IMG/VR virus record: IMGVR_UViG_3300021389_000010
Coordinates: 1-64,000 of that record
Source of the DNA: a virus
Direction: 5' to 3' (one strand)
Length of the DNA stretch: 64,000 nt
Position numbers and translations under genes: made by a program. Numbering within the stretch: position 1 is the stretch's first letter; each line of letters starts with the position of its first letter. Below the pieces are notes generated by a model. That model worked only from the letters and a program-made list of their open reading frames with translations. It did no database searches and had not been told where the DNA came from. Positions 20,643 through 64,000 of the stretch are shown in pieces.

Positions 20643-20680
20643 AAGCATAGTTGTGCGGTGTTATCCTCTTGCACTCTTGA
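20640..20680 (-). repeat. Conserved 5' leader element, copy 1
   Basis: AAGAGTGC-AAGA-GG-ATAACA-CC-GCACAACTATGCTT-ATG; near-identical to the copy at 22288. Confidence 0.75.
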
Positions 20681-20867
20681 GTTTGGTTGTTACTAAATCA
20701 TCTATGTCGCTCATCGCTAATTCGATTTCATGGGGTTGCGACCCACCATCTTCTATCTCCATCATACATAGGTCAAAGAAGTCATGCACCTCATCCGTAA
20801 GATCTGGGTGCTTGGCCACGATGTCCTTGCAGTATGTAATAAAGTTATCTATCATCCTGTCATCCAT
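20661..20867 (-). CDS. Hypothetical acidic protein
   Basis: ORF in the early operon. Confidence 0.55.
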   Translation of the reverse strand: MDDRMIDNFITYCKDIVAKHPDLTDEVHDFFDLCMMEIEDGGSQPHEIELAMSDIDDLVTTKLKSARG

Positions 20868-22290: not shown

Positions 22291-22340
22291 AAGCATAGTT
22301 GTGCGGTTATATCCCATCGCACTCTTCGGTTTCGGTTATA
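22288..22340 (-). repeat. Conserved 5' leader element, copy 2
   Basis: AAGAGTGC-GATG-GG-ATATAA-CC-GCACAACTATGCTT-ATG. Confidence 0.75.
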
Positions 22341-22343
22341 TAA

Positions 22344-23720
22344 TTATTTTTGTTCTTCAAGAAGTTTATCCATCGCCTCCAAAGTAGGTTGCGCATCAGT
22401 CACGTAGTTCATACCGAACTTGTCTCGCAGTCTATCCACCGCCTCACTTGAGTACGACACGATAGTACGTGGGTCTACCTTGCGGTTCTTCAATCTACGC
22501 ACAGCACTCTTGTAGAATACACCTACACCATCAGCACTAAAATTGAATGAACCGTACAAGTCATCGGCAAACTGAGCGTATAGGCTCACTACCTTCAGCA
22601 CTTGGTCATTCGAGTACACCTTACGCAAGTGAATACCCAATGCACTCTTAGGATTGAGCATCATAGTAATCAATTGCAACGGCTTGATGTTCTCGTTAGC
22701 ACACATAATACGCATCAGATCCCTACGCCATAGCAGGTTGGTCACGTTCTTGAACGCAGGTGGTAAGCGGAACTCAATGTATCTACTTTGAATGTTGACC
22801 GCTGAATACTTGCCGGCACGCTTGTAGTTGTCCGGCTTACGTTGTATTTGCGAGTAGTGGTTAGTAATCCGGTGTCTCCATATAGTTAGAAACAACGGCA
22901 CGAATGCTTGAATCGAATCGAAAAATTCCTCACCCGATATACCGCGCTTACCTACATTGATGTGTCCACCACAATTACTGCCGTAGTCAGCGTTGATATG
23001 GTCACGAAGTATTCGGCCCTCCAAAGCACTGTCTAACAGCGGGTCATTCAAGTCATAGATTGGACTGACTAATTCAAAGCCGGTCTCATCGCATAGGCTA
23101 CTATCCGACTCGCGGCACCACCCTGTCTCATCCACAGCATCCAAGTCCCACGTATCTAACGGGTCATCATCTTCCTTCTCGACCTCGAAGCCGATTGTGT
23201 ACACAGTGTCACGTGAAGTGAAGTCCCTGCGAAACCCACTATGGTATTCATGCAGTTGGCGGTCATTCTCCTCTTGAAGTCGGTACTCCTCATTGCGCTC
23301 ACTCCAAAAGATATTCGAACCACAATCATCAATGTGGTACGTGCCCCCATCTTCCTCGCAGTACAGCGTGTCATCTGTCCAACACCACCCGCCTTCGTAC
23401 ATACTGTACGACCCATCTATGTAGGAAACACTGCACTCATTGTCGTAGTCTGGCCACCATATCTTGTCACCACACACAAGTGTTTTTACATCTGACACGT
23501 ACTCGTCATTAAGTATGGTGACTCTATTGAAACCCCCATCGTGGTGCAACATAGGTCTATCACACATCGCTTCTCGAGCAAACTCTCCCTCGTACTCGCT
23601 CGGTGCTGTAAGCATTAAGCAGTCATCTAAATTCTCGACTTCGCCGTTAAAACAAACGACTTGTCCATCTTTCAATTCATCCATAGGCATATGTTTATGT
23701 GCATCATTAGCCCTGCACAT
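22344..23720 (-). CDS. Putative amidoligase (COOH-NH2 ligase) with Cys/acidic N-terminal region
   Basis: GFEVE, DSSL, GFELVSP, CGGHIN and IEFR motifs; true start may be 23684 or 23690. Confidence 0.75.
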   Translation of the reverse strand: MCRANDAHKHMPMDELKDGQVVCFNGEVENLDDCLMLTAPSEYEGEFAREAMCDRPMLHHDGGFNRVTILNDEYVSDVKTLVCGDKIWWPDYDNECSVSYIDGSYSMYEGGWCWTDDTLYCEEDGGTYHIDDCGSNIFWSERNEEYRLQEENDRQLHEYHSGFRRDFTSRDTVYTIGFEVEKEDDDPLDTWDLDAVDETGWCRESDSSLCDETGFELVSPIYDLNDPLLDSALEGRILRDHINADYGSNCGGHINVGKRGISGEEFFDSIQAFVPLFLTIWRHRITNHYSQIQRKPDNYKRAGKYSAVNIQSRYIEFRLPPAFKNVTNLLWRRDLMRIMCANENIKPLQLITMMLNPKSALGIHLRKVYSNDQVLKVVSLYAQFADDLYGSFNFSADGVGVFYKSAVRRLKNRKVDPRTIVSYSSEAVDRLRDKFGMNYVTDAQPTLEAMDKLLEEQK

Positions 23721-23731
23721 TTAGGCTTAGG

Positions 23732-23841
23732 GGACTGCATGGGACTCGAACCCATAGTACACCCAAACACCACGTTATAAACCAAAACCAAAAGACTTGG
23801 TGCTTGTGTAGCAGTCCGTTTATAGTGTGGTCTCCACTACC
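23732..23841 (-). ncRNA. tRNA-like structured RNA, copy 1
   Basis: 7-bp stem GGACUGC/GCAGUCC, T-arm AUGGG-UUCGAGU-CCCAU, long central helix and an upstream GUGG-AGA-CCAC hairpin. Confidence 0.7.
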
Positions 23842-23853
23842 AAATCATCCCTA

Positions 23854-23900
23854 CAAACATAGGGTAACTATCTGACAATCAGCGTTAAAGAAATGTTAAA
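23854..23900 (-). promoter_or_regulatory. Early promoter TATGTTTG with upstream TTTAAC(A/G) direct repeats
   Basis: Box at 23854-23861; repeats at 23883-23889 and 23894-23900 (11-bp period). Confidence 0.65.
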
Positions 23901-23920
23901 ACTCATTCTCAACCTTCGGT

Positions 23921-24079
23921 TCAACGTATGAGCGATCGGATAATACCTACGTCTACCGTACCGTACTTGTCATGTACCTTACATAGGTACGCCCAAGCCT
24001 CGCGTATTTCCTTCTCGCTCCCTCTCCTTCTGCCGGTGTGTATAGCAACAGCCCGGCTCAGTCTTTGTAACTCATTCAT
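23921..24079 (-). CDS. Small hypothetical protein (52 aa)
   Basis: MNELQRLSRAVAIHTGRRRGSEKEIREAWAYLCKVHDKYGTVDVGIIRSLIR, downstream of RNA element copy 2. Confidence 0.5.
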   Translation of the reverse strand: MNELQRLSRAVAIHTGRRRGSEKEIREAWAYLCKVHDKYGTVDVGIIRSLIR

Positions 24080-24100
24080 GCTCATTCACATTTGTTTAGG

Positions 24101-24192
24101 GGACTACGAGTGTCTCGCTCACTCAGTGCAACAGGGGCATAGGTATCCCCTTTGCAGGTAGTCCGTTGTAGGTGTGGTCACCACCATCCAAA
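24101..24192 (-). ncRNA. tRNA-like structured RNA, copy 2
   Basis: GGACUAC/GUAGUCC stem, GAGUG-AGCGAGA-CACUC arm, central UGCAAAGGGG/CCCCU-G-UUGCA helix and an upstream GUGG-UGA-CCAC hairpin. Confidence 0.7.
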
Positions 24193-24202
24193 AAGTACAG
24201 TT

Positions 24203-24424
24203 CTATTTCCGCTTTGCCCTACGGGTTTCACGTTGGGCTTGTGCCCTGTATACCTTGCGGTCAATCCGGTCAGCGTACATGTTTTCAAGTGCATCGGCTT
24301 TCATCTTACCCCGAACCTTGCGCTTACTTGCACTTGCAGTCTTACCGCCCAGAGTCGGTGCGCTCACCACTCGGACTACGTACTCATAGCCCTTGTGGTT
24401 GCGTTGTGTTGCGAAATTCCCCAT
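24203..24424 (-). CDS. Hypothetical basic protein
   Basis: Start overlaps the stop of 24424..24660. Confidence 0.55.
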   Translation of the reverse strand: MGNFATQRNHKGYEYVVRVVSAPTLGGKTASASKRKVRGKMKADALENMYADRIDRKVYRAQAQRETRRAKRK

Positions 24425-24660
24425 TACACATTTGTGTTTTGAGGGGCAACAAACATATCGAAGTTGCCTTGCACAAGTAAGCGGAACTGCGGGTCACGGA
24501 CACTCTTGTAGGCACCAGCCAGTAGGTCTGTGTAGAAGCCGAACGATGCGAAGGCTTCGGTGTTGATGAAATCTTCGAACAGGTTTTCGATGAAGTCACG
24601 CCCCATTGTGCTTTCGAGGGCTTGCAATTGTGTGGTTGTGTTGGGTGTTGTGTTGTCCAT
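24424..24660 (-). CDS. Hypothetical protein, first gene of the early arm
   Basis: A-rich leader ending TTGCCTT-ATG. Confidence 0.6.
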   Translation of the reverse strand: MDNTTPNTTTQLQALESTMGRDFIENLFEDFINTEAFASFGFYTDLLAGAYKSVRDPQFRLLVQGNFDMFVAPQNTNV

Positions 24661-59421: not shown

Positions 59422-61118
59422 TGGCTGATACATCCACATTCATGGCGGTGGGCCAGGTACCACAAGTAGATTATGGTGCGGTGTACAGAAACGCCAAGGC
59501 CCGTCGCGAGTTAGAAGAAGAGAAGAAACTACAATACCTTAACCAGTTCCAACAGGAACGTGGTGCTTTCACTACGGGTATGCAGGATGAACTGCAAGCA
59601 GAGTGGGATGCTATTGAATCCGACCTGGATCAGGGAGATATGTCTCTTGAGGCAAAGGCCCGAAGACAGCGGCTGTATAATAACTACAAGCAACACGCTG
59701 CCGATGCTCTTGAATACGCAAACACTGTTAATGATTTAGAGGCATCTATACTAGCAGACCCAAATGCATACAATGACCCTGCTGATTTAATGTCTCAATT
59801 AGAAGATGCACGTAATGTACAGGTGAGTGCTCAAAACATAGGTTTAGTAGCGGGTGAATTACCATCACTAAATGAGTTCCGAAGATTTTCTTTGCCAGAG
59901 ATTGCTCCTAACGCAGCAGCAGGCATGATACTGGAGAACTTGAAAACCTCTGGTGGTATCAATAACTTCTACGACATGAGTGGATCTGGAGAGATTGACC
60001 CAGATTCAGTAGCCTCCAGTGTTACCGCATGGTTCAATAGTAATTCTCTGTCACAACAAGAAGAAGACCAGGCCATTGCATACGTACTCCACCAACTCGG
60101 TGGTTTAAACGGTTCTATGGATGACCTTTCTAAAATTAGAAACCTATCAGATGAAGAGCGTGAAGGATACATAGGTCAGTACGCGCAGTATGTTACTGGT
60201 TCTTTGCAAAATATGTTGGCTGAAGATATAACAACAGAGCGGGAGAAGCGTCAAGCGGAACTCTCTGACTACAGAACCAAATCAAGAATACAAGCAGAAG
60301 AATCGAGGGCAGCGTCGAACGCTTCTGGGTACAGTGGATTTGTTGTAGAGGCTGGTGATTTACAATACATGCCACCTATTACTCCAGACGCCAATGGAAA
60401 TGTTTTAAAAACTAGTGACCCAGAATTGGCTAACGCTAACATGGCAATTCACGCGAGTATAGAGGGCACACAACCTATGTACAGAGACGTGAATGGTAAT
60501 CAAAATTATATCGAGAGCATTGGTATAGACCAAGACGGGAAGATGATTGCTATTATTAGAACTAATCAGTCAGTAAAGAACAGGAGTAATAAAACTGAAA
60601 CTCACGTTGCTAGAACAGTGGTAGACGCATCTGAAATACCGTTGAATGGATTGAGTAACGCCAAGCAAGCAGATAAGATTCGTCAGACATACAACAATAT
60701 GCTACCTATGTGGTCGGCAAACTTTGCGGGTCGTGAGCCACAGCAAAACTTCCAGGGAGATATAAATGTCCTTGGTGAAATGGAAGTCGAGACAAGCGAA
60801 ACAGGCGTAATGCAAGGCCCTGCTGCTCCCAAGGGTGTCGGGACATCCGACCAAGGTACAATGGCAGGTCAGTTTGTACGTCCACAAGGTTCTACTGCAG
60901 AGCCTACAATTGAAATCACAGTAGACGAGTGGAGTGACATGAGCAAGCCAGCACAGCGGAACTTCATCATGGATGAAGCAGTAAATCGTAACAGCGAGAC
61001 AGTTGAACTCAATGGTCGTCAACGCAGAAAATGGGACACGATGACACCTACTGAGCGTAAAAACGAATTGGCTAAAGTTCGCAATGAATTAAGACTACAA
61101 TTGAAAATTGATATTTAA
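59421..61118 (+). CDS. Internal virion protein
   Basis: 565 aa between ejection-type genes; paralog of 3..965. Confidence 0.65.
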   Translation: MADTSTFMAVGQVPQVDYGAVYRNAKARRELEEEKKLQYLNQFQQERGAFTTGMQDELQAEWDAIESDLDQGDMSLEAKARRQRLYNNYKQHAADALEYANTVNDLEASILADPNAYNDPADLMSQLEDARNVQVSAQNIGLVAGELPSLNEFRRFSLPEIAPNAAAGMILENLKTSGGINNFYDMSGSGEIDPDSVASSVTAWFNSNSLSQQEEDQAIAYVLHQLGGLNGSMDDLSKIRNLSDEEREGYIGQYAQYVTGSLQNMLAEDITTEREKRQAELSDYRTKSRIQAEESRAASNASGYSGFVVEAGDLQYMPPITPDANGNVLKTSDPELANANMAIHASIEGTQPMYRDVNGNQNYIESIGIDQDGKMIAIIRTNQSVKNRSNKTETHVARTVVDASEIPLNGLSNAKQADKIRQTYNNMLPMWSANFAGREPQQNFQGDINVLGEMEVETSETGVMQGPAAPKGVGTSDQGTMAGQFVRPQGSTAEPTIEITVDEWSDMSKPAQRNFIMDEAVNRNSETVELNGRQRRKWDTMTPTERKNELAKVRNELRLQLKIDI

Positions 61119-64000
61119 TGGAAGACGAGCAGTTATTAGAAGCACTTGAGTCCGCGTACAATAGAGGGGTAACCCTTGAGCAGATGCAGGGTAAACTTAG
61201 CGATGACGCAATGGTTGTCGCACAAGATTTCTTTTCAAAAAAAAAAGATGGTACCGAAGATTCTCAGATCGCCAGTCCTTCGGTATCAGCATCAGAGCCT
61301 TCGGTAAACGGTACGGTATCTCTATCTACTCGACTCGACTCTGATTCAAAGGCGGTTTCTTCTGGTTTGTTAGATGCTGTAAAGTCAGCACAGGAACGCG
61401 GTGTTACCCTTGAGCAAATGCAGGGTAAGTTGTCTGATGACGCGTACAATTTAGCCAGTCAATACTACAAAACCATAGAGTCTCAACGTCCTGTTAATCG
61501 CAAGATGAAAGACCACTGGTTAATCATTGACGATAACCCAAGTGAGTTAGGTAGATTGTGGAATCGCGCTGTATCTGGTGGTATTCTTGCTAACGAAATA
61601 CAAGAGGCAGAAATCACAGGGGTGATGGACTACGAAAAGATAGCCTACCTCAACAACATAGTTCAAAGAGACGCACCAAAAGAAGAAGACTACCTATACG
61701 ACACCGATAATCCTGTAGGTAGTTTTGTGCTTGATGTAATACGCACTATACCAGAGTCATTAATCTCTATGGCTACTGCGTATGAGACTGGTGTCAGAGG
61801 TGCAGCGGCAGGTGCTGGTGTAGGTGCAGGAGTAGGCTCTGTTATTCCCGGTGCAGGTACAGCGGCAGGTGCAACTACTGGTGCTATAGCAGGATACTTT
61901 GGTGGAACATCATTGGCTCTTGAGTATGGTCATTCTATTATGGATGTACTTCGTGAGGAGGGCGTAGACGTCACTTCTCCAGATCAACTAAGGGAAGCAT
62001 CACGTGACCAAAGAATAATGTCTAAGGCACGAGAGAAAGGCCTCAAGCGTGGTATCCCTATCGCGGTATTCGATGCTATATCGGGGGGTACTGCGGGTAA
62101 AGTAGGTAACGTACTCGTAAAATCTGTAGGTAAATCAGCGACAAACAGAGCCATGAAGGTGGCTGCGGCAGAAACCTTGGTTCAAGCAGGGCTTGGGGGT
62201 ACTGGTGAGTTTGCGGGACAGGTAATATCGGGTGAGGAAATCAGACCAAGAGACATAGCACTCGAGGCATTCGCTGAGTTAGGCCCAGCAGCACCCGTAA
62301 TGGCCTACAATCTTGCAGGTCGCATCGGTAAAACACCTGGTGAATTATCATACATAGACTGGGCAAAAGAACAGGATCAGAAGAAACTCTCTGTAGCCAA
62401 TGAGATATCTTTTGTGGCTAACAATGGGGAGATTGCATCTATAGATAATGAGATTCAAAAACTTAGAGAGTCTAAGAAGAAAGACCCAACCACAAAGAAA
62501 GCCGTAGACGCTAAACTACAGCGACTAAAACAAGAAAAGTACAGCCTACTTAGAGAAACCTCTGAGAGAGTTATGAAACTAGAGGGGGTACAAGAAGAAA
62601 TAGCAGACCAGTTAACGCGTGACCTTAATGCAGCAGCGGCAGTATTAAAGGAAGGTAATATTACTGCGGAAGAAAAGGCTGCTATCGAAGAAGAGATGGA
62701 GCAGTCAGCCAAAGAGTTAGACCAGTTGCTGTCGGGCCAAACAGAAGAGCAAACACAAGCGCAACCAGATGATAAAAAAGTTAAGCCCGAAGAAGTACCA
62801 GGTGCAGAGCAAGTCGGGGAAGAACTTGGGGACGTACCCAAGTCGGAAACAAGCAGAGCGAAGGCTCAAATTAGTGGAATACTTCAAGCACGCCAAGAAG
62901 AAGTAGGTAGAAAATCAAGAAGTAAAAGTGTAGCCGACGCGCTGACTGATTTTAAATACAACAGAGACAGGAAGAAAGGAGTTTTCTTTAACCTGTTTGA
63001 TAAGAACGACGCGGGTGCATTGCGAACAATGCTGGAGGAAGGAAAATATAGCGACGGTAAAAGGATACCTATAAAAGAACAGCGGATACTAAGCAAACTT
63101 GTGTTAGCAAGTGAGGCCTACAGACTTTTGAATCCAGACTCTAAAGATTTCAATGTAGGGTTTGGAAGAAAGGGTTTCTACGCAGCGGGTAAAGCGGCTG
63201 GCTTTAAAAAAGCAGATTTAAAAAATGCTGCTGGTATAACCTCTGGTAGAGTAGGCACTAAAGACGCTCCTATTATAGTGTCTATACCATCCGCAGATGA
63301 ATCCCTATCTCAGAGAGGTAAGGTAGATAGATATACAGCAGAAGGCACTGCGTATCATGAGGTTTACCACAAGATATTCTCAAAGTTTTTTAACGACAGA
63401 CCTATTGACTTCAATCAGTTTAGGAAACTTGTGATTCGTAGGTTAAGCGAGAGCAATGTCAAGGAGTTAAATGCTTTTGCGGAGCGATACATGGAGCGTG
63501 AGGATGGAGAATCTGCTGGTGCTTACAAGTCAGAGGAATTTATGGTTCAACTTGGTGGCTTACTCGGTAGTGAAAGAATTGTTTTTGAAGCATCTTTTCT
63601 CGAGGAACTCAAAGCGTTTTTAAATGGTGTCGTAAGTAAGATAACAGGCAATCGTGTACAGATATTTGAAGAGGCTGGTCTGGCTAAAGATATTTCTGAG
63701 TACATGAAAGGAATGAGTAAGGCTGTACGTGCTGGTGCAGACATCAGTCAAGTACCTATGGCCGAATCCTTGCAGACAGAACGCTTTCAAAGAGAGCGAC
63801 CAACGACTACGGAAAAAACAGAGAAGGACGAGTACGGGTTTGAAAAGCCTACGGGCGAGATGGATGTAGAGCCAAGTAAAAACGTGGCAGGTATACCAGA
63901 TCCAGAGAACTACGACAAGACCTTTGATCCTCTAGAAAAACTAACCGGAATTCTAGGCCCTAAACTAAACGCATTAGCAAAGAAACTCGAGAAGGTTCTT
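61118..64000 (+). CDS. Giant internal virion protein, 3'-truncated by the window edge; paralog of 979..7029 (absent from the ORF track)
   Basis: ATG overlaps the TAA at 61118. Contains MEDEQLLEALESAYNRGVTLEQ, AREKGLKRGIPIAVFDAISGG, TAYHEVYH and SEEFMVQL. Confidence 0.85.
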   Translation, partial: MEDEQLLEALESAYNRGVTLEQMQGKLSDDAMVVAQDFFSKKKDGTEDSQIASPSVSASEPSVNGTVSLSTRLDSDSKAVSSGLLDAVKSAQERGVTLEQMQGKLSDDAYNLASQYYKTIESQRPVNRKMKDHWLIIDDNPSELGRLWNRAVSGGILANEIQEAEITGVMDYEKIAYLNNIVQRDAPKEEDYLYDTDNPVGSFVLDVIRTIPESLISMATAYETGVRGAAAGAGVGAGVGSVIPGAGTAAGATTGAIAGYFGGTSLALEYGHSIMDVLREEGVDVTSPDQLREASRDQRIMSKAREKGLKRGIPIAVFDAISGGTAGKVGNVLVKSVGKSATNRAMKVAAAETLVQAGLGGTGEFAGQVISGEEIRPRDIALEAFAELGPAAPVMAYNLAGRIGKTPGELSYIDWAKEQDQKKLSVANEISFVANNGEIASIDNEIQKLRESKKKDPTTKKAVDAKLQRLKQEKYSLLRETSERVMKLEGVQEEIADQLTRDLNAAAAVLKEGNITAEEKAAIEEEMEQSAKELDQLLSGQTEEQTQAQPDDKKVKPEEVPGAEQVGEELGDVPKSETSRAKAQISGILQARQEEVGRKSRSKSVADALTDFKYNRDRKKGVFFNLFDKNDAGALRTMLEEGKYSDGKRIPIKEQRILSKLVLASEAYRLLNPDSKDFNVGFGRKGFYAAGKAAGFKKADLKNAAGITSGRVGTKDAPIIVSIPSADESLSQRGKVDRYTAEGTAYHEVYHKIFSKFFNDRPIDFNQFRKLVIRRLSESNVKELNAFAERYMEREDGESAGAYKSEEFMVQLGGLLGSERIVFEASFLEELKAFLNGVVSKITGNRVQIFEEAGLAKDISEYMKGMSKAVRAGADISQVPMAESLQTERFQRERPTTTEKTEKDEYGFEKPTGEMDVEPSKNVAGIPDPENYDKTFDPLEKLTGILGPKLNALAKKLEKVL
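61232..61344 (+). other. Putative -1 frameshift/slippage site (A10) and 32-codon extension
   Basis: TTT TCA AAA AAA AAA GAT; the -1 frame reads RWYRRFSDRQSFGISIRAFGKRYGISIYSTRL*. Confidence 0.7.
62769..62906 (+). CDS. Nested +1-frame small basic protein (45 aa)
   Basis: MIKKLSPKKYQVQSKSGKNLGTYPSRKQAERRLKLVEYFKHAKKK; homolog of 2621..2773. Confidence 0.75.
   Translation: MIKKLSPKKYQVQSKSGKNLGTYPSRKQAERRLKLVEYFKHAKKK

What the first reader, a model, noticed from the sequence alone, without database searches (positions are those of the whole stretch)
23732..24192. Two covarying tRNA-like three-way-junction RNAs in early transcripts
Seen on the minus strand: both copies have a GUGG-(A/U)GA-CCAC hairpin, then AAC, a 7-bp acceptor-like stem (GGACUGC/GCAGUCC vs GGACUAC/GUAGUCC, a compensatory change), a variable central helix, CU, a 5-bp/7-nt T-like arm (AUGGG-UUCGAGU-CCCAU vs GAGUG-AGCGAGA-CACUC, different sequences but both paired) and CCUAA. 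There is no D-arm, anticodon arm or CCA. Copy 1 starts right after a promoter. Established: acceptor+T-arm mimics are RNase P/Z substrates, and phage P1 C4 and P4 CI RNAs are processed tRNA-like regulators. Inference: an RNA family acting as processing signal, scaffold for swappable guide loops, or decoy for tRNA-targeting defences.
Basis: partly seen in the sequence, partly recalled or inferred. Interest (0 to 1): 0.75.

Follow-up and report, generated by a model that had tools for sequence, protein, structure and literature searches.

The report
tRNA-like cut signals in phage early RNA
Two small RNA folds that copy the top half of a tRNA sit between the early genes of an uncultured aquatic phage and probably tell host tRNA-trimming enzymes where to cut the message, and each follows a near-invariant hairpin shared by many related phages.

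Summary
Both elements are real: copy 1 at 23732-23817(-) and copy 2 at 24101-24164(-). Each has a 7-bp closing stem, a 5-bp/7-nt T-like arm, one long central arm and a CCUAA tail. Relatives in viral and metagenome contigs keep the fold through compensatory changes. Rfam has no match. ARAGORN's tRNA-Gln call for copy 1 does not recur in relatives.

Covariation supports N-GUG[GNGACCA]CAC-N'. This hairpin belongs to a separate, near-invariant leader, hairpin-NNNAAC-GGAC. The leader occurs in over 100 aquatic phage contigs, is at chance level in prokaryote genomes, and usually lies just downstream of a small basic protein gene with an arginine-rich C-terminus.

After the same leader, other lineages carry a true tRNA-Tyr or a twister-sister ribozyme. 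My best reading (about 0.5) is t-element-like cut-here signals for RNase P/Z that also release stable small RNAs. No RNA ends could be mapped.

An overlapping window of this genome already noted these elements, and the scan has AI notes of tRNA-like cut signals in other phages.

The parts
23732..23817 (-). Copy 1, tRNA-like RNA of 86 nt. Acceptor-like stem 23811-23817 pairs with 23732-23738. The central arm is 23758-23810, the CU linker 23756-23757, and the T arm 23739-23755.
   Evidence: Sequence; fold; parse of 22 relatives; model R1 hit of 106.1 bits, E 3.4e-22; covariation.
23772..23798 (-). Apical loop of copy 1 carrying UUGGUUUUGGUU. A UUGGU repeat is kept in relatives whose stems differ.
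   Evidence: Alignment A2 and parse. TTGGT is enriched downstream of the leader: 23 of 54 instances against 7.1 +/- 2.5 in shuffles.
23739..23755 (-). T arm of copy 1, AUGGG-UUCGAGU-CCCAU, with a canonical T-loop sequence (it fits GGTTCRANYCC).
   Evidence: The motif as used by Forner et al. 2007 (PMC1920247, passages read). T stem 100% paired, with 4 of 5 pairs changed on both sides.
23727..23731 (-). 3' tail CCUAA of copy 1: discriminator C followed by CUAA.
   Evidence: In relatives the tail is N-C-N-A-A, and it is CCA in L003 and L040.
23818..23838 (-). Leader element before copy 1. The hairpin A-GUG[GAGACCA]CAC-U is at 23824-23838 and the linker AUAAAC at 23818-23823. The conserved GGAC that follows doubles as the first four acceptor bases.
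24101..24164 (-). Copy 2, tRNA-like RNA of 64 nt. Acceptor-like stem 24158-24164 pairs with 24101-24107. The central arm is 24127-24156 and the T-like arm 24108-24124 (loop AGCGAGA, not a T-loop consensus).
   Evidence: MAFFT alignment A7 of 13 distinct relatives. 99.3% of cells paired, and 6 of 21 pairs changed on both sides. R1 scores it 33.0 bits, E 1.1e-4.
24134..24150 (-). Hairpin GGGG-AUACCUAUG-CCCC at the tip of copy 2's central arm. Similar hairpins follow the first leader in lineages that lack the tRNA-like frame.
   Evidence: The stem covaries between GGGG/CCCC and AAGG/CCUU.
24096..24100 (-). 3' tail CCUAA of copy 2.
24165..24185 (-). Leader element before copy 2: hairpin G-GUG[GUGACCA]CAC-C at 24171-24185, then UACAAC.
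24203..24424 (-). Gene of a 73-aa basic protein with the conserved C-terminus RAxxQRxxRRAKR. Its stop codon lies 18 nt before the leader.
   Evidence: Alignment A4. The family lies just upstream of the leader in 115 of 154 upstream ORFs and in 109 of 129 loci. No Pfam, PHROG or PDB relative was found.
23921..24085 (-). 54-aa ORF between the two elements. It belongs to the same family as the 64-aa ORF that follows the true tRNA-Tyr in L015, L017 and L028.
   Evidence: cluster of 37 ORFs.
23697..23720 (-). Hairpin AUGUGCA-N10-UGCACAU between copy 1 and the next gene. It is kept in distant relatives.
22344..23690 (-). First large gene after copy 1, about 448 aa, weakly amidoligase-like. It follows a copy-1-type element in relatives.
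   Evidence: Synteny in 16 loci. 8 of 30 homologues match Pfam Amidoligase_2, best E 5.5e-4, and the window's own protein does not match.
23849..23864 (-). Hairpin CCCUA-UGUUUG-UAGGG upstream of the copy 1 leader.

Best explanation
The window comes from an uncultured phage of about 60 kb. Its terminase is closest to those of Flavobacterium, Maribacter, Cellulophaga and crAss-like phages. Between its early-region genes it encodes two RNAs that imitate the acceptor/T-arm half of a tRNA, with a single long arm in place of the D and anticodon arms.

I propose that they work like the t-elements of plant mitochondria. The early RNA is transcribed as a long message. Host RNase P cuts at G1, between 23818 and 23817 and between 24165 and 24164. 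RNase Z or an equivalent enzyme cuts after the discriminator. This would separate the message of the small basic protein, the 54-aa ORF and the amidoligase-like gene. It would also release stable species of 86 and 64 nt, perhaps CCA-tailed.

The conserved apical loops, (UUGGU)n in copy 1 and GGGG-AUACCUAUG-CCCC in copy 2, probably give the released RNAs a second job that is still unknown.

The hairpin ahead of each copy is a separate leader element, N-GUG[GNGACCA]CAC-N' NNNAAC GGAC. It most likely acts in the RNA, possibly as the binding site of the arginine-rich protein encoded just upstream.

Shown here: the fold, its conservation and covariation, the leader and its linkage to that gene, and the interchange with a tRNA or a ribozyme. 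Inferred: every cleavage, the order of events, and any binding.
For: 1. Fold and covariation.
- Model R1 gave 53 hits in 98 sources and 33 hits in 61 sources.
- On the 33 distinct rows of A3, 92.0% of cells pair, against 67.1% in shuffles.
- 21 of 24 pairs change on both sides. The covariation score is 0.562, against 0.174 in shuffles (0 of 500 reach it) and at most 0.125 for slid partners.
- For copy 2 alone, on a MAFFT alignment not fitted to the structure: 99.3% paired, 6 of 21 pairs changed on both sides, score 0.236 against 0.130 (0 of 500).
- Leaderless members have quite different acceptor stems: GGGCAUC, GGAUGUG, GGGUUGC, GGGGCAC.

2. tRNA-processing determinants.
- The elements have a 7-bp acceptor stacked directly on a 5-bp T stem, and G1-C72 and G2-C71 are invariant.
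- Copy 1 has a canonical T loop.
- Chen et al. [quoted passage not shown] 3. Positional equivalence.
- In L015, L017 and L028 the leader and the AUACCUAUG hairpin are followed by a true tRNA-Tyr.
- That tRNA is followed by an ORF of the same family as the one after window copy 2.
- In L026 and L039 the second leader is followed by a twister-sister ribozyme of 37.9 and 38.4 bits (gathering score 34).
- A pistol ribozyme of 70.2 bits sits in the early region of L095.

4. Known precedent. Forner et al. 2007 (PMC1920247, passages read) mapped RNA ends at t-elements.

5. Presence in RNA libraries. Contigs of four studies cover the elements.
Against: - No RNA end, strand or abundance could be read, because all four runs laid are contigs.
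- One contig from a DNase-treated RNA library runs unbroken from the basic-protein gene through the leader and copy 2 into the next ORF (X3, 24075-24214 plus loose ends). If it is RNA, it is an uncut precursor.
- DNA carry-over in these libraries is not excluded.
- Copy 2's T-like loop (AGCGAGA, CUCGUGA or UUCGUGA) is not a T-loop consensus.
- In the L036 lineage the copy-2 slot has lost the closing stem and T-like arm but keeps the hairpin. The tRNA-like frame is therefore dispensable there.
- The conserved loops are not explained by a pure cut signal.
- The base before G1 is C. As I recall it, bacterial RNase P prefers U there.
- The A3 alignment was fitted to the model, which favours pairing. 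It also includes two true tRNAs (L056, L017) that I did not remove.
Confidence: 0.5

Rival explanations
1. The leader is a single-strand (DNA-hairpin) promoter for an unrecognised phage or virion RNA polymerase, in the manner of coliphage N4. Transcription would start at the G of GGAC, so the two RNAs would be primary transcripts with a paired 5' end and would need no RNase P.
For: - The motif is near-invariant over about 24 nt, while its flanks and the neighbouring proteins diverge to 30-40% identity.
- There are only two copies per genome, in the same orientation, at the head of the early block.
- A GC-rich hairpin often ends 3-12 nt upstream of the motif, like a terminator.
- In several RNA classes the closing stem begins exactly at GGAC.
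- The stem covaries while the loop is fixed. As I recall them, N4 promoters behave the same way.
- The motif is absent from prokaryote genomes.
Against: - No T7-like RNA polymerase domain was found in the record. The control genomes did not ring either, so this is weak evidence.
- No DxDxD motif occurs in the ORFs of over 900 aa, apart from one in a tail-fibre protein.
- RNA-library contigs of three runs include the motif and sequence upstream of it.
- The closing pair shows U-G in 3 distinct rows and C-A in 1 on the sense strand. This leans towards a fold of the sense strand rather than of the template strand.
- In L015-type and L027-type loci the acceptor starts 5-7 nt after GGAC.
Confidence: 0.2
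2. The structures are uncut cis-regulatory parts of the early message. The arginine-rich protein would bind the leader hairpin, as lambda N binds boxB. That would change transcription (antitermination) or translation of the genes downstream, and the tRNA-like folds would be roadblocks, terminators or operators.
For: - The gene of the arginine-rich protein ends 10-100 nt before the first leader in 109 of 129 loci.
- Its only conserved part is the C-terminal RAxxQRxxRRAKR.
- The hairpin has a covarying stem and a fixed GNGA-containing loop.
- There are two sites per genome in the early block.
- An apparently uncut contig spans copy 2.
- Copy 1 and the hairpin after it always abut the start of the amidoligase-like gene.
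Against: - The protein has no detectable homology to N or to any known family.
- The likeness to the lambda N arginine-rich motif is recalled, not tested.
- No U-tract terminators follow the elements.
- Adjacency could simply reflect operon order.
- This reading does not explain why a real tRNA or a self-cleaving ribozyme can occupy the same slot.
Confidence: 0.2
3. The tRNA-like frame serves only for maturation, and the main role is trans-acting antisense control, as in phage P4 CI RNA and P1 C4 RNA. The (UUGGU)n loop of copy 1 would pair with AACCRAAAC sites in the leaders of early genes.
For: - The leader of the gene starting at 22317 holds UAUAACCGAAACCGAAGAG. It pairs with the copy 1 loop at -19.7 kcal/mol, and only 0.4% of 500 shuffled leaders do as well.
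- A paralogous leader at 20649-20700 holds AACCAAACUCAAGAG.
- Both leaders are kept in relatives.
- The loop sequence is conserved while its stem covaries.
Against: - Genome-wide, the 22355 site ranks only 14th. Shuffled loops reach -18 to -28 kcal/mol somewhere on the strand.
- The other four cognate pairs are weak (p 0.04-0.18), and cognate pairs are not better than non-cognate ones.
- The two leaders are paralogues, so they count as one observation.
- No antisense site was found for the copy 2 loop.
Confidence: 0.12
4. The RNAs are decoys or sponges for host tRNA-binding factors, such as tRNA-targeting defence nucleases, CCA-adding enzyme, modification enzymes or EF-Tu.
For: Only the shape points this way: an acceptor/T-arm minihelix with a canonical T loop in copy 1.
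Against: - There is no anticodon loop for anticodon nucleases to recognise.
- The acceptor sequences differ widely between lineages, so no single tRNA identity is being copied.
- Nothing in the neighbourhood points to such a factor.
Confidence: 0.06
5. The elements are decaying tRNA genes without function.
For: ARAGORN calls copy 1 tRNA-Gln, and a true tRNA occupies the slot in one lineage.
Against: - Pairing is maintained by compensatory changes in all four helices.
- The apical loops are conserved.
- No RF00005 hit appears even at E 10.
- ARAGORN makes no such call at any of the 14 scanned loci that hold a copy-1-type element.
Confidence: 0.02

Closest known systems
t-elements of plant mitochondria and the tRNA-punctuation principle (Forner et al. 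2007, PMC1920247; passages read)
   Same: Both are non-decoding tRNA-like folds with an acceptor stem and a pseudouridine-type arm, lying between coding regions of long transcripts. They are interchangeable with real tRNAs at such positions and are thought to direct RNase P and RNase Z.
   Different: The present elements are in a phage of bacteria, not an organelle. They have a single long arm with conserved loop motifs. Each is preceded by a fixed leader hairpin. No ends have been mapped.
Phage P4 CI RNA and P1/P7 C4 RNA
   Same: Both are small stable RNAs cut out of the leader of an early phage operon, with tRNA-like paired ends matured by RNase P and loops that act on the same operon.
   Different: No convincing complementary target was found here. 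Those RNAs have no T arm of tRNA type as far as I recall. There is no sequence or Rfam relation.
Bacterial YrlA / Y RNAs (Chen et al. 2014, PMC4201824; passages read)
   Same: Both are ncRNAs with a tRNA-like module. The M. smegmatis YrlA, which has a 7-bp acceptor, is cut by RNase P and receives CCA.
   Different: There is no Ro60/TROVE gene and no RF02553 match. The elements have no D-arm mimic and no Ro-binding helix.
tRNA-like domain of tmRNA
   Same: Both have an acceptor stem and a T arm, with a long helix leaving the junction where the anticodon arm would be.
   Different: The third pair is A3-U70, not G3-U70. There is no tag reading frame and no pseudoknots. ARAGORN finds no tmRNA. The only RF00023 signal is 16.6 bits against a gathering score of 47, and it is on a relative.
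Lambda N protein with its boxB/nut RNA site (recalled), as a comparison for the leader plus the small basic protein
   Same: Both pair a small basic protein carrying an arginine-rich helix-like motif with a short RNA hairpin that has a purine-rich GNRA-like loop. Both have two copies in early transcripts.
   Different: Here the motif is C-terminal and the gene lies upstream of the site. There is no detectable homology. Neither binding nor antitermination has been tested.
Twister-sister and pistol self-cleaving ribozymes (Rfam RF02681, RF02679)
   Same: They occupy the same or nearby slots in the early region of sister phages, which suggests the shared purpose of cutting the RNA.
   Different: The window's elements do not match these families. 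They would rely on host enzymes rather than on self-cleavage.

Membership tests
Canonical tRNA (cloverleaf, Rfam RF00005) | A 7-bp acceptor stem stacked on a 5-bp T stem with a 7-nt T loop | tested here: met
   The copy 1 loop UUCGAGU is canonical. The copy 2 loop AGCGAGA is not.
Canonical tRNA (cloverleaf, Rfam RF00005) | A D arm and an anticodon arm with a 7-nt anticodon loop, and a match to the tRNA model | tested here: not met
   One long arm replaces both. No RF00005 match appears up to E 10 in 23600-24300. ARAGORN calls only the window's copy 1 and none of the 14 scanned loci that hold a copy-1-type element. In turn, true tRNAs score only 22.5 and 25.2 bits on model R1.
Canonical tRNA (cloverleaf, Rfam RF00005) | A 3' CCA end and aminoacylation | not testable with these tools
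   The window encodes C-CUA-A. L003 and L040 encode C-CCA-A. Addition after transcription cannot be seen.
tmRNA | G3-U70 alanine identity, a tag reading frame, and a match to RF00023 | tested here: not met
   The third pair is A3-U70. ARAGORN finds no tmRNA. The only RF00023 signal is 16.6 bits (gathering score 47), on L019.
YrlA / bacterial Y RNA | A match to RF02553 and a neighbouring Ro60 (TROVE) gene | tested here: not met
   The TROVE control rang in 2 of 14 control genomes.
t-element-like processing signal (a functional class) | A non-decoding tRNA-like fold between coding regions of one transcription unit | tested here: met
t-element-like processing signal (a functional class) | The slot can be filled by a real tRNA or another RNA-cutting device | tested here: met
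   tRNA-Tyr in L015, L017 and L028. Twister-sister in L026 and L039.
t-element-like processing signal (a functional class) | RNA termini coincide with the ends of the element | not testable with these tools
   Only contigs of RNA libraries were available. One contig spans copy 2 uncut.
P4 CI / P1 C4-type processed antisense RNA | A loop complementary to sites in the same operon | tested here: inconclusive
   One leader pairs at -19.7 kcal/mol (p 0.004 against shuffled leaders). That is not exceptional genome-wide, and cognate pairs are not favoured. Nothing was found for copy 2.
Lambda N / nut-type protein-RNA pair (for the leader) | An RNA hairpin with a structure-constrained stem and a fixed loop in early transcripts | tested here: met
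   98.1% paired, 3 of 4 pairs changed on both sides, score 0.332 against 0.071. The motif lies inside RNA-library contigs.
Lambda N / nut-type protein-RNA pair (for the leader) | A small protein with an arginine-rich motif that binds the hairpin and confers antitermination | not testable with these tools
   The arginine-rich C-terminus and the tight linkage are shown. There is no homology to any family. Binding is untested.
N4-type DNA-hairpin promoter (for the leader) | A phage-borne single-subunit RNA polymerase, with transcripts that start downstream of the hairpin | tested here: inconclusive
   PF00940 was not found, but its control rang nowhere. RNA-library contigs include the hairpin, but they cannot show starts.

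The most novel reading that the evidence does not exclude
A large clade of aquatic, probably Bacteroidota-infecting, phages shares an undescribed early-RNA control module. An invariant 28-nt leader hairpin is recognised by a dedicated small protein through a C-terminal arginine-rich motif. The leader is coupled to an interchangeable RNA-cutting cassette: a true tRNA, a tRNA-like three-way junction, or a twister-sister ribozyme. The tRNA-like cassettes have in addition become scaffolds that deliver conserved loops, (UUGGU)n and AUACCUAUG, as stable small RNAs. The (UUGGU)n loop may dock on the GACCA of the leader loop.
Probability: 0.3. Interest if true: 0.85.

Novelty: new variant of a known kind. 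Interest (0 to 1): 0.66.

Why it matters
If the reading holds, phages of abundant aquatic bacteria punctuate their early messages with borrowed tRNA shapes. They would swap these freely with real tRNAs and self-cleaving ribozymes. That would make these slots a natural experiment in RNA-processing design.

The family is missing from Rfam and is mis-called or missed by tRNA finders, so it affects phage annotation.

The leader hairpin and its linked arginine-rich protein are a compact, testable candidate for a new protein-RNA switch, or a new promoter type. Early gene control in this phage group is essentially unknown. For the crAss-like phage phi14:2, the bioRxiv version 10.1101/2020.03.07.982082 (passages read) reports no common early promoter motif and two unexplained abundant early non-coding RNAs.

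Tried and rejected
- Known RNA families. The window scan at gathering scores gave 0 matches. A permissive scan of 23600-24300 gave 3 unrelated matches at E of 4.4 or more. The commonest other RNA class after the leader (L016 type) also matched nothing meaningful.
- Cultured phages. There was no DNA match to the 521-nt region. A 35-nt leader query found only four chance-level Lactococcus phage hits at E 1.
- First leader pattern. It was typed with one base too many and found nothing, not even the window's own copies.
- Literature. A search for the motif letters found 2 unrelated papers. Searches for tRNA-like phage ncRNAs and for Flavobacterium or Cellulophaga phage early control (listings only except as cited) showed no description of these elements. 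That covers only this library.
- Antisense targets. The result is inconclusive for copy 1 and negative for copy 2.
- Intermediate 'mini tRNA-like' form in L025 and L027. Minimum-free-energy folds did not reproduce it, so I dropped it.
- RNA polymerase. PF00940 gave no hit, but its control rang nowhere. The 2016-aa and 1674-aa proteins had no PDB relatives.
- Host-type promoter. TANNTTTG is at chance frequency in the window.
- RNA-run coverage. Parts of 23400-24500 without cover in the four runs, and the small word shares of the 12 RNA runs, are not evidence of anything.
With A5 it confirmed only 2 of 50 candidate stretches, and both were already held. The ESM Atlas gave nothing.
- Rows left out. 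L004, L010 and L012, and L023, L029, L032, L041, L056, L083, L117, L128, L136 and L140, were treated as chance hits. They are GC-rich coding-looking contexts with no family features, and I excluded them from the leader statistics. Of the 36 new loci, I added only L181, L185, L199 and L208 to A6, chosen by flanking family features. L175 (pairs kept) and L173, L180, L186 and L202 (a pair broken) were left out as of unclear membership. The rest looked like chance hits.
Full report
**What the window is**

The window is the first 64 kb of an 82,425-bp IMG/VR virus record. The last 21 kb of the record repeats the first 21 kb in diverged form, with the same gene order and similar gene lengths. The true genome is therefore about 60 kb. 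The assembly runs past one genome length into a second strain.

The window's terminase and portal match PHROG head-and-packaging families and its primase-helicase a PHROG DNA/RNA-metabolism family. The terminase is 40-49% identical to those of an uncultured Caudoviricetes record, Maribacter phage Panino and Flavobacterium 'elemo' phages. More distant hits are to Cellulophaga and crAss-like phages.

The finding lies in a block of minus-strand genes that runs down to the replication genes.

**The observation**

- Copy 1 (G1 = 23817) is GGACUGC, a 53-nt central arm, CU, AUGGG-UUCGAGU-CCCAU, GCAGUCC, CCUAA.
- Copy 2 (G1 = 24164) is GGACUAC, a 31-nt central arm, CU, GAGUG-AGCGAGA-CACUC, GUAGUCC, CCUAA.

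Each folds into the three-way junction on its own, with z-scores of -2.25 and -2.33. A mechanical scan of the whole record for the same architecture plus CCTAA finds these two and one more, at record position 80750-80829(-) in the second-strain part, and nothing else.

**Relatives and covariation**

An exact pattern for the two acceptor strands and the tail found 13 viral contigs, 10 of which are true relatives. I built a covariance model (R1) from 16 copy-1-type sequences. It found 53 matches in 98 sources and 33 in 61 sources.
- Copy-1-type elements score E 1e-22 to 4e-15.
- Copy 2 and its relatives score 29-36 bits.
- A third sub-type (L015-like) scores 30-34 bits.
- Members without any leader also appear: L019:12238-12326, the third element of this record, L025:3295-3375 and L027:2220-2302.

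On the 33 distinct rows, 92.0% of cells pair against 67.1% in shuffles. 21 of 24 pairs change on both sides. The covariation score is 0.562, against 0.174 in shuffles (0 of 500 reach it) and at most 0.125 when partners are slid. This alignment is fitted to the model, and it includes two real tRNAs that I did not remove.

For copy 2 I used a plain MAFFT alignment of 13 distinct sequences. It gives 99.3% paired, 6 of 21 pairs changed on both sides (1 in the acceptor, 3 in the central arm, 2 in the T-like arm), and a score of 0.236 against 0.130 (0 of 500).

Acceptor stems range over GGACUGC, GGACUGA, GGGCAUC, GGAUGUG, GGGUUGC, GGGGCAC and GGGGUGU, each with a matching 3' strand. The fold is real and under selection.

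**Not a tRNA or any catalogued family**

Rfam gives nothing at gathering scores. Around the elements, even at E 10, it gives nothing but noise.

ARAGORN calls copy 1 a tRNA-Gln of 88 nt. It makes no call at any of the 14 scanned loci that carry a copy-1-type element. One of those differs from the window by a single base. In the same run it correctly finds a tRNA-Tyr in three loci.

True tRNAs score only 22.5 and 25.2 bits on R1. There is no TROVE gene and no YrlA match. The only tmRNA signal is far below threshold.

**The 5' hairpin re-read**

The stretch ahead of both copies (GTGG-N-GACCACAC-N4-AAC-GG) proved to be far more widespread than the tRNA-like RNAs.
- That gives 203 instances, 132 of them unique, in the loci then held.
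- In 1.05 Mb of these loci it is almost invariant: 198 exact copies, and only 11 with one to three mismatches.
- It is at or below chance in 596 Gb of prokaryote genomes. There are 8 hits in assorted phyla, and my arithmetic for 18 fixed bases expects about 17.
- It is absent from cultured phage records.

What follows the motif differs by lineage: copy-1-type RNAs, copy-2-type RNAs, long closing-stem RNAs (L021 type), and a common class of unknown kind (L016 type).

Among 57 non-redundant instances, the base before GTG pairs with the base after CAC in 55 (AT 36, CG 8, GC 5, TG 5, TA 1). Shuffles give 30.8 +/- 3.0.

A relaxed scan added four family members whose inner stem pairs changed on both sides (L181, L199, L185, L208). 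On 61 sequences the register N-GUG[GNGACCA]CAC-N' is 98.1% paired, with 3 of 4 pairs changed on both sides and a score of 0.332 against 0.071. I chose the four by their flanks, not by their pairing. Five unclear hits were left out, and I name them in the report.

**A linked protein**

The ORF that ends just before the first leader belongs to one family in 115 of 154 cases. It does so in 109 of 129 loci that have enough upstream sequence, ending 10-100 nt before the motif. In the window it is the 73-aa ORF at 24203-24424.

Its N-terminal part is variable, and only the C-terminal RAxxQRxxRRAKR is conserved. It matches nothing in Pfam, PHROGs, PDB sequences or the ESM Atlas. 199 relatives exist in metagenomes.

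The motif reminds me of the arginine-rich RNA-binding peptides of lambdoid N proteins. That is recall, not a test.

**Why I favour 'cut here'**

In L015, L017 and L028 the first leader and an AUACCUAUG hairpin are followed by a genuine tRNA-Tyr. The ORF after that tRNA is of the same family as the 54-aa ORF after window copy 2. Window copy 2 therefore looks like that hairpin set into a bare acceptor/T-arm frame.

In L026 and L039 the second leader is followed, about 36 nt on, by a twister-sister ribozyme above Rfam's gathering score. That is 2 of the 21 records that could be searched. L095 has a pistol ribozyme before its next early gene.

A real tRNA, a tRNA look-alike and a self-cleaving ribozyme share one property: each causes the RNA to be cut at a fixed place.

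An acceptor stem of 7 bp stacked on a T arm is what RNase P, RNase Z and the CCA-adding enzyme read. Chen et al. [quoted passage not shown] Forner et al. 2007 mapped mRNA ends at plant mitochondrial t-elements.

**RNA data**

Twelve runs labelled RNA hold 5-10% of the sampled words of 23400-24500. Laying four of them, from four studies, shows contigs over several stretches:
- copy 1 with its leader (X1, 23656-23850);
- copy 2 with its leader (X3, 24075-24214; X6, 24076-24214);
- the gene of the small protein (X6, 24203-24352);
- a 90%-identical relative (X2, 23492-24067).

These are contigs. They show neither strand, ends nor level, and DNA carry-over is possible.

They do place the leader inside RNA-library sequence, and one contig spans copy 2 uncut. 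This leans against a transcription start at GGAC and shows at most that precursor exists.

**Loops**

The copy 1 loop keeps UUGGU repeats in all sub-types. TTGGT is enriched after the leader: 23 of 54 instances against 7.1 +/- 2.5.

Two earlier notes suggested AACC(G)AAAC sites in shared early-gene leaders as targets. I found the sites. One pairs well (-19.7 kcal/mol, p 0.004 against shuffled leaders). The energy is unremarkable genome-wide, and cognate pairs are not favoured.

The copy 2 loop has no antisense site. It resembles the start-codon context of early genes, but I did not test that.

UGGUY is also complementary to the GACCA of the leader loop. In L026, however, the UUGG forms helix P1 of the ribozyme. 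This remains an idea only.

**Comparison and verdict**

In mechanism the closest things are t-elements and tRNA punctuation, followed by the P4 CI and P1 C4 RNAs (recalled). The elements are not members of the tRNA, tmRNA or YrlA families, because defining features were tested and not met.

I rate the family as a new variant of a known kind. The leader with its linked protein may be something newer. Whether the leader acts as RNA (my preference, about 0.6) or as a single-strand promoter (about 0.2) is open. I found no paper describing either element within the library searched.

Other agents of this scan have reached 'cut-here' readings for tRNA-like modules in other phages. Those are unchecked AI notes, and I do not count them as support.

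Noticed in passing
record positions 61118-82425 (window 61118-64000 and beyond) compared with window 979-22300: The record runs past one genome length. Its end repeats its start with the same gene order but diverged sequence and some different genes. The true genome is therefore about 60 kb, and the assembly joins two strains.
   Followed up: partly
record 80750-80829(-), outside the window; locus L162:16750-16829: A third tRNA-like element. It has a different acceptor (GGGCAUC/GAUGCCC), a UUCGUGA loop, UUGGUUUGGUUUUGGUU in the apical loop, the same CCUAA tail and no leader motif. Model R1 scores it 42.2 bits.
   Followed up: yes
window 20649-20700(-) and 22318-22345(-): Two unrelated early genes share a leader of about 45 nt: AACCRAAAC..GAGUGC-[loop with GGAUA]-GCAC-AACUAUGCUUAUG. 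It is kept in relatives and may be a common translational operator.
   Followed up: partly
window 22344-23690(-): The first large early gene is a divergent amidoligase-like protein. 8 of 30 homologues match Pfam Amidoligase_2 weakly, and the conserved motifs include GFEVEKED, DGSL, CGGHIN and EFRI. It always lies directly behind a copy-1-type RNA and a hairpin.
   Followed up: partly
L026:2973-3038(-), and the record of L039: A twister-sister ribozyme above the Rfam gathering score lies about 36 nt after the second leader motif.
   Followed up: yes
L095:765-827(+): A pistol ribozyme (70.2 bits) lies between a hairpin with a T-run terminator and the next early ORF, 570 nt downstream of the leader.
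   Followed up: partly
L016:2500-2660(-), also L018, L037, L065, L078, L208 and others: The commonest RNA class after the leader matches no Rfam family. Its outline is GGACG..GUGCA..UUGGUCUAU-hairpin-AUAGGUUUAGG-hairpin-GCUCAAAC. It shares the CGCUCAAAC end with the twister-sister of L026.
   Followed up: partly
about 3-25 nt upstream of the leader in many loci, e.g. L016, L021, L037, L050: A GC-rich tetraloop-type hairpin ends a few bases before the leader, often preceded by ACATAT right after the stop codon of the small protein gene. Its role is unknown (terminator, stabiliser or part of the site).
   Followed up: no
window 23989(-) and 24145(-): UACCUAUG occurs in the copy 2 loop and again inside the 54-aa ORF, within a perfect 6-bp hairpin (GUACCU-AUGU-AAGGUAC). 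Early genes often start in a ..CCUAUG or ..CUUAUG context.
   Followed up: partly
central arm of copy 1, window 23762-23763(-): A 3'-side bulge (GG, AGG, CGG or AG) is kept five base pairs from the junction in all copy-1 sub-types while the flanking helices covary. It could dock on the T loop as D-loop G18-G19 does in tRNA. This is inference only.
   Followed up: no
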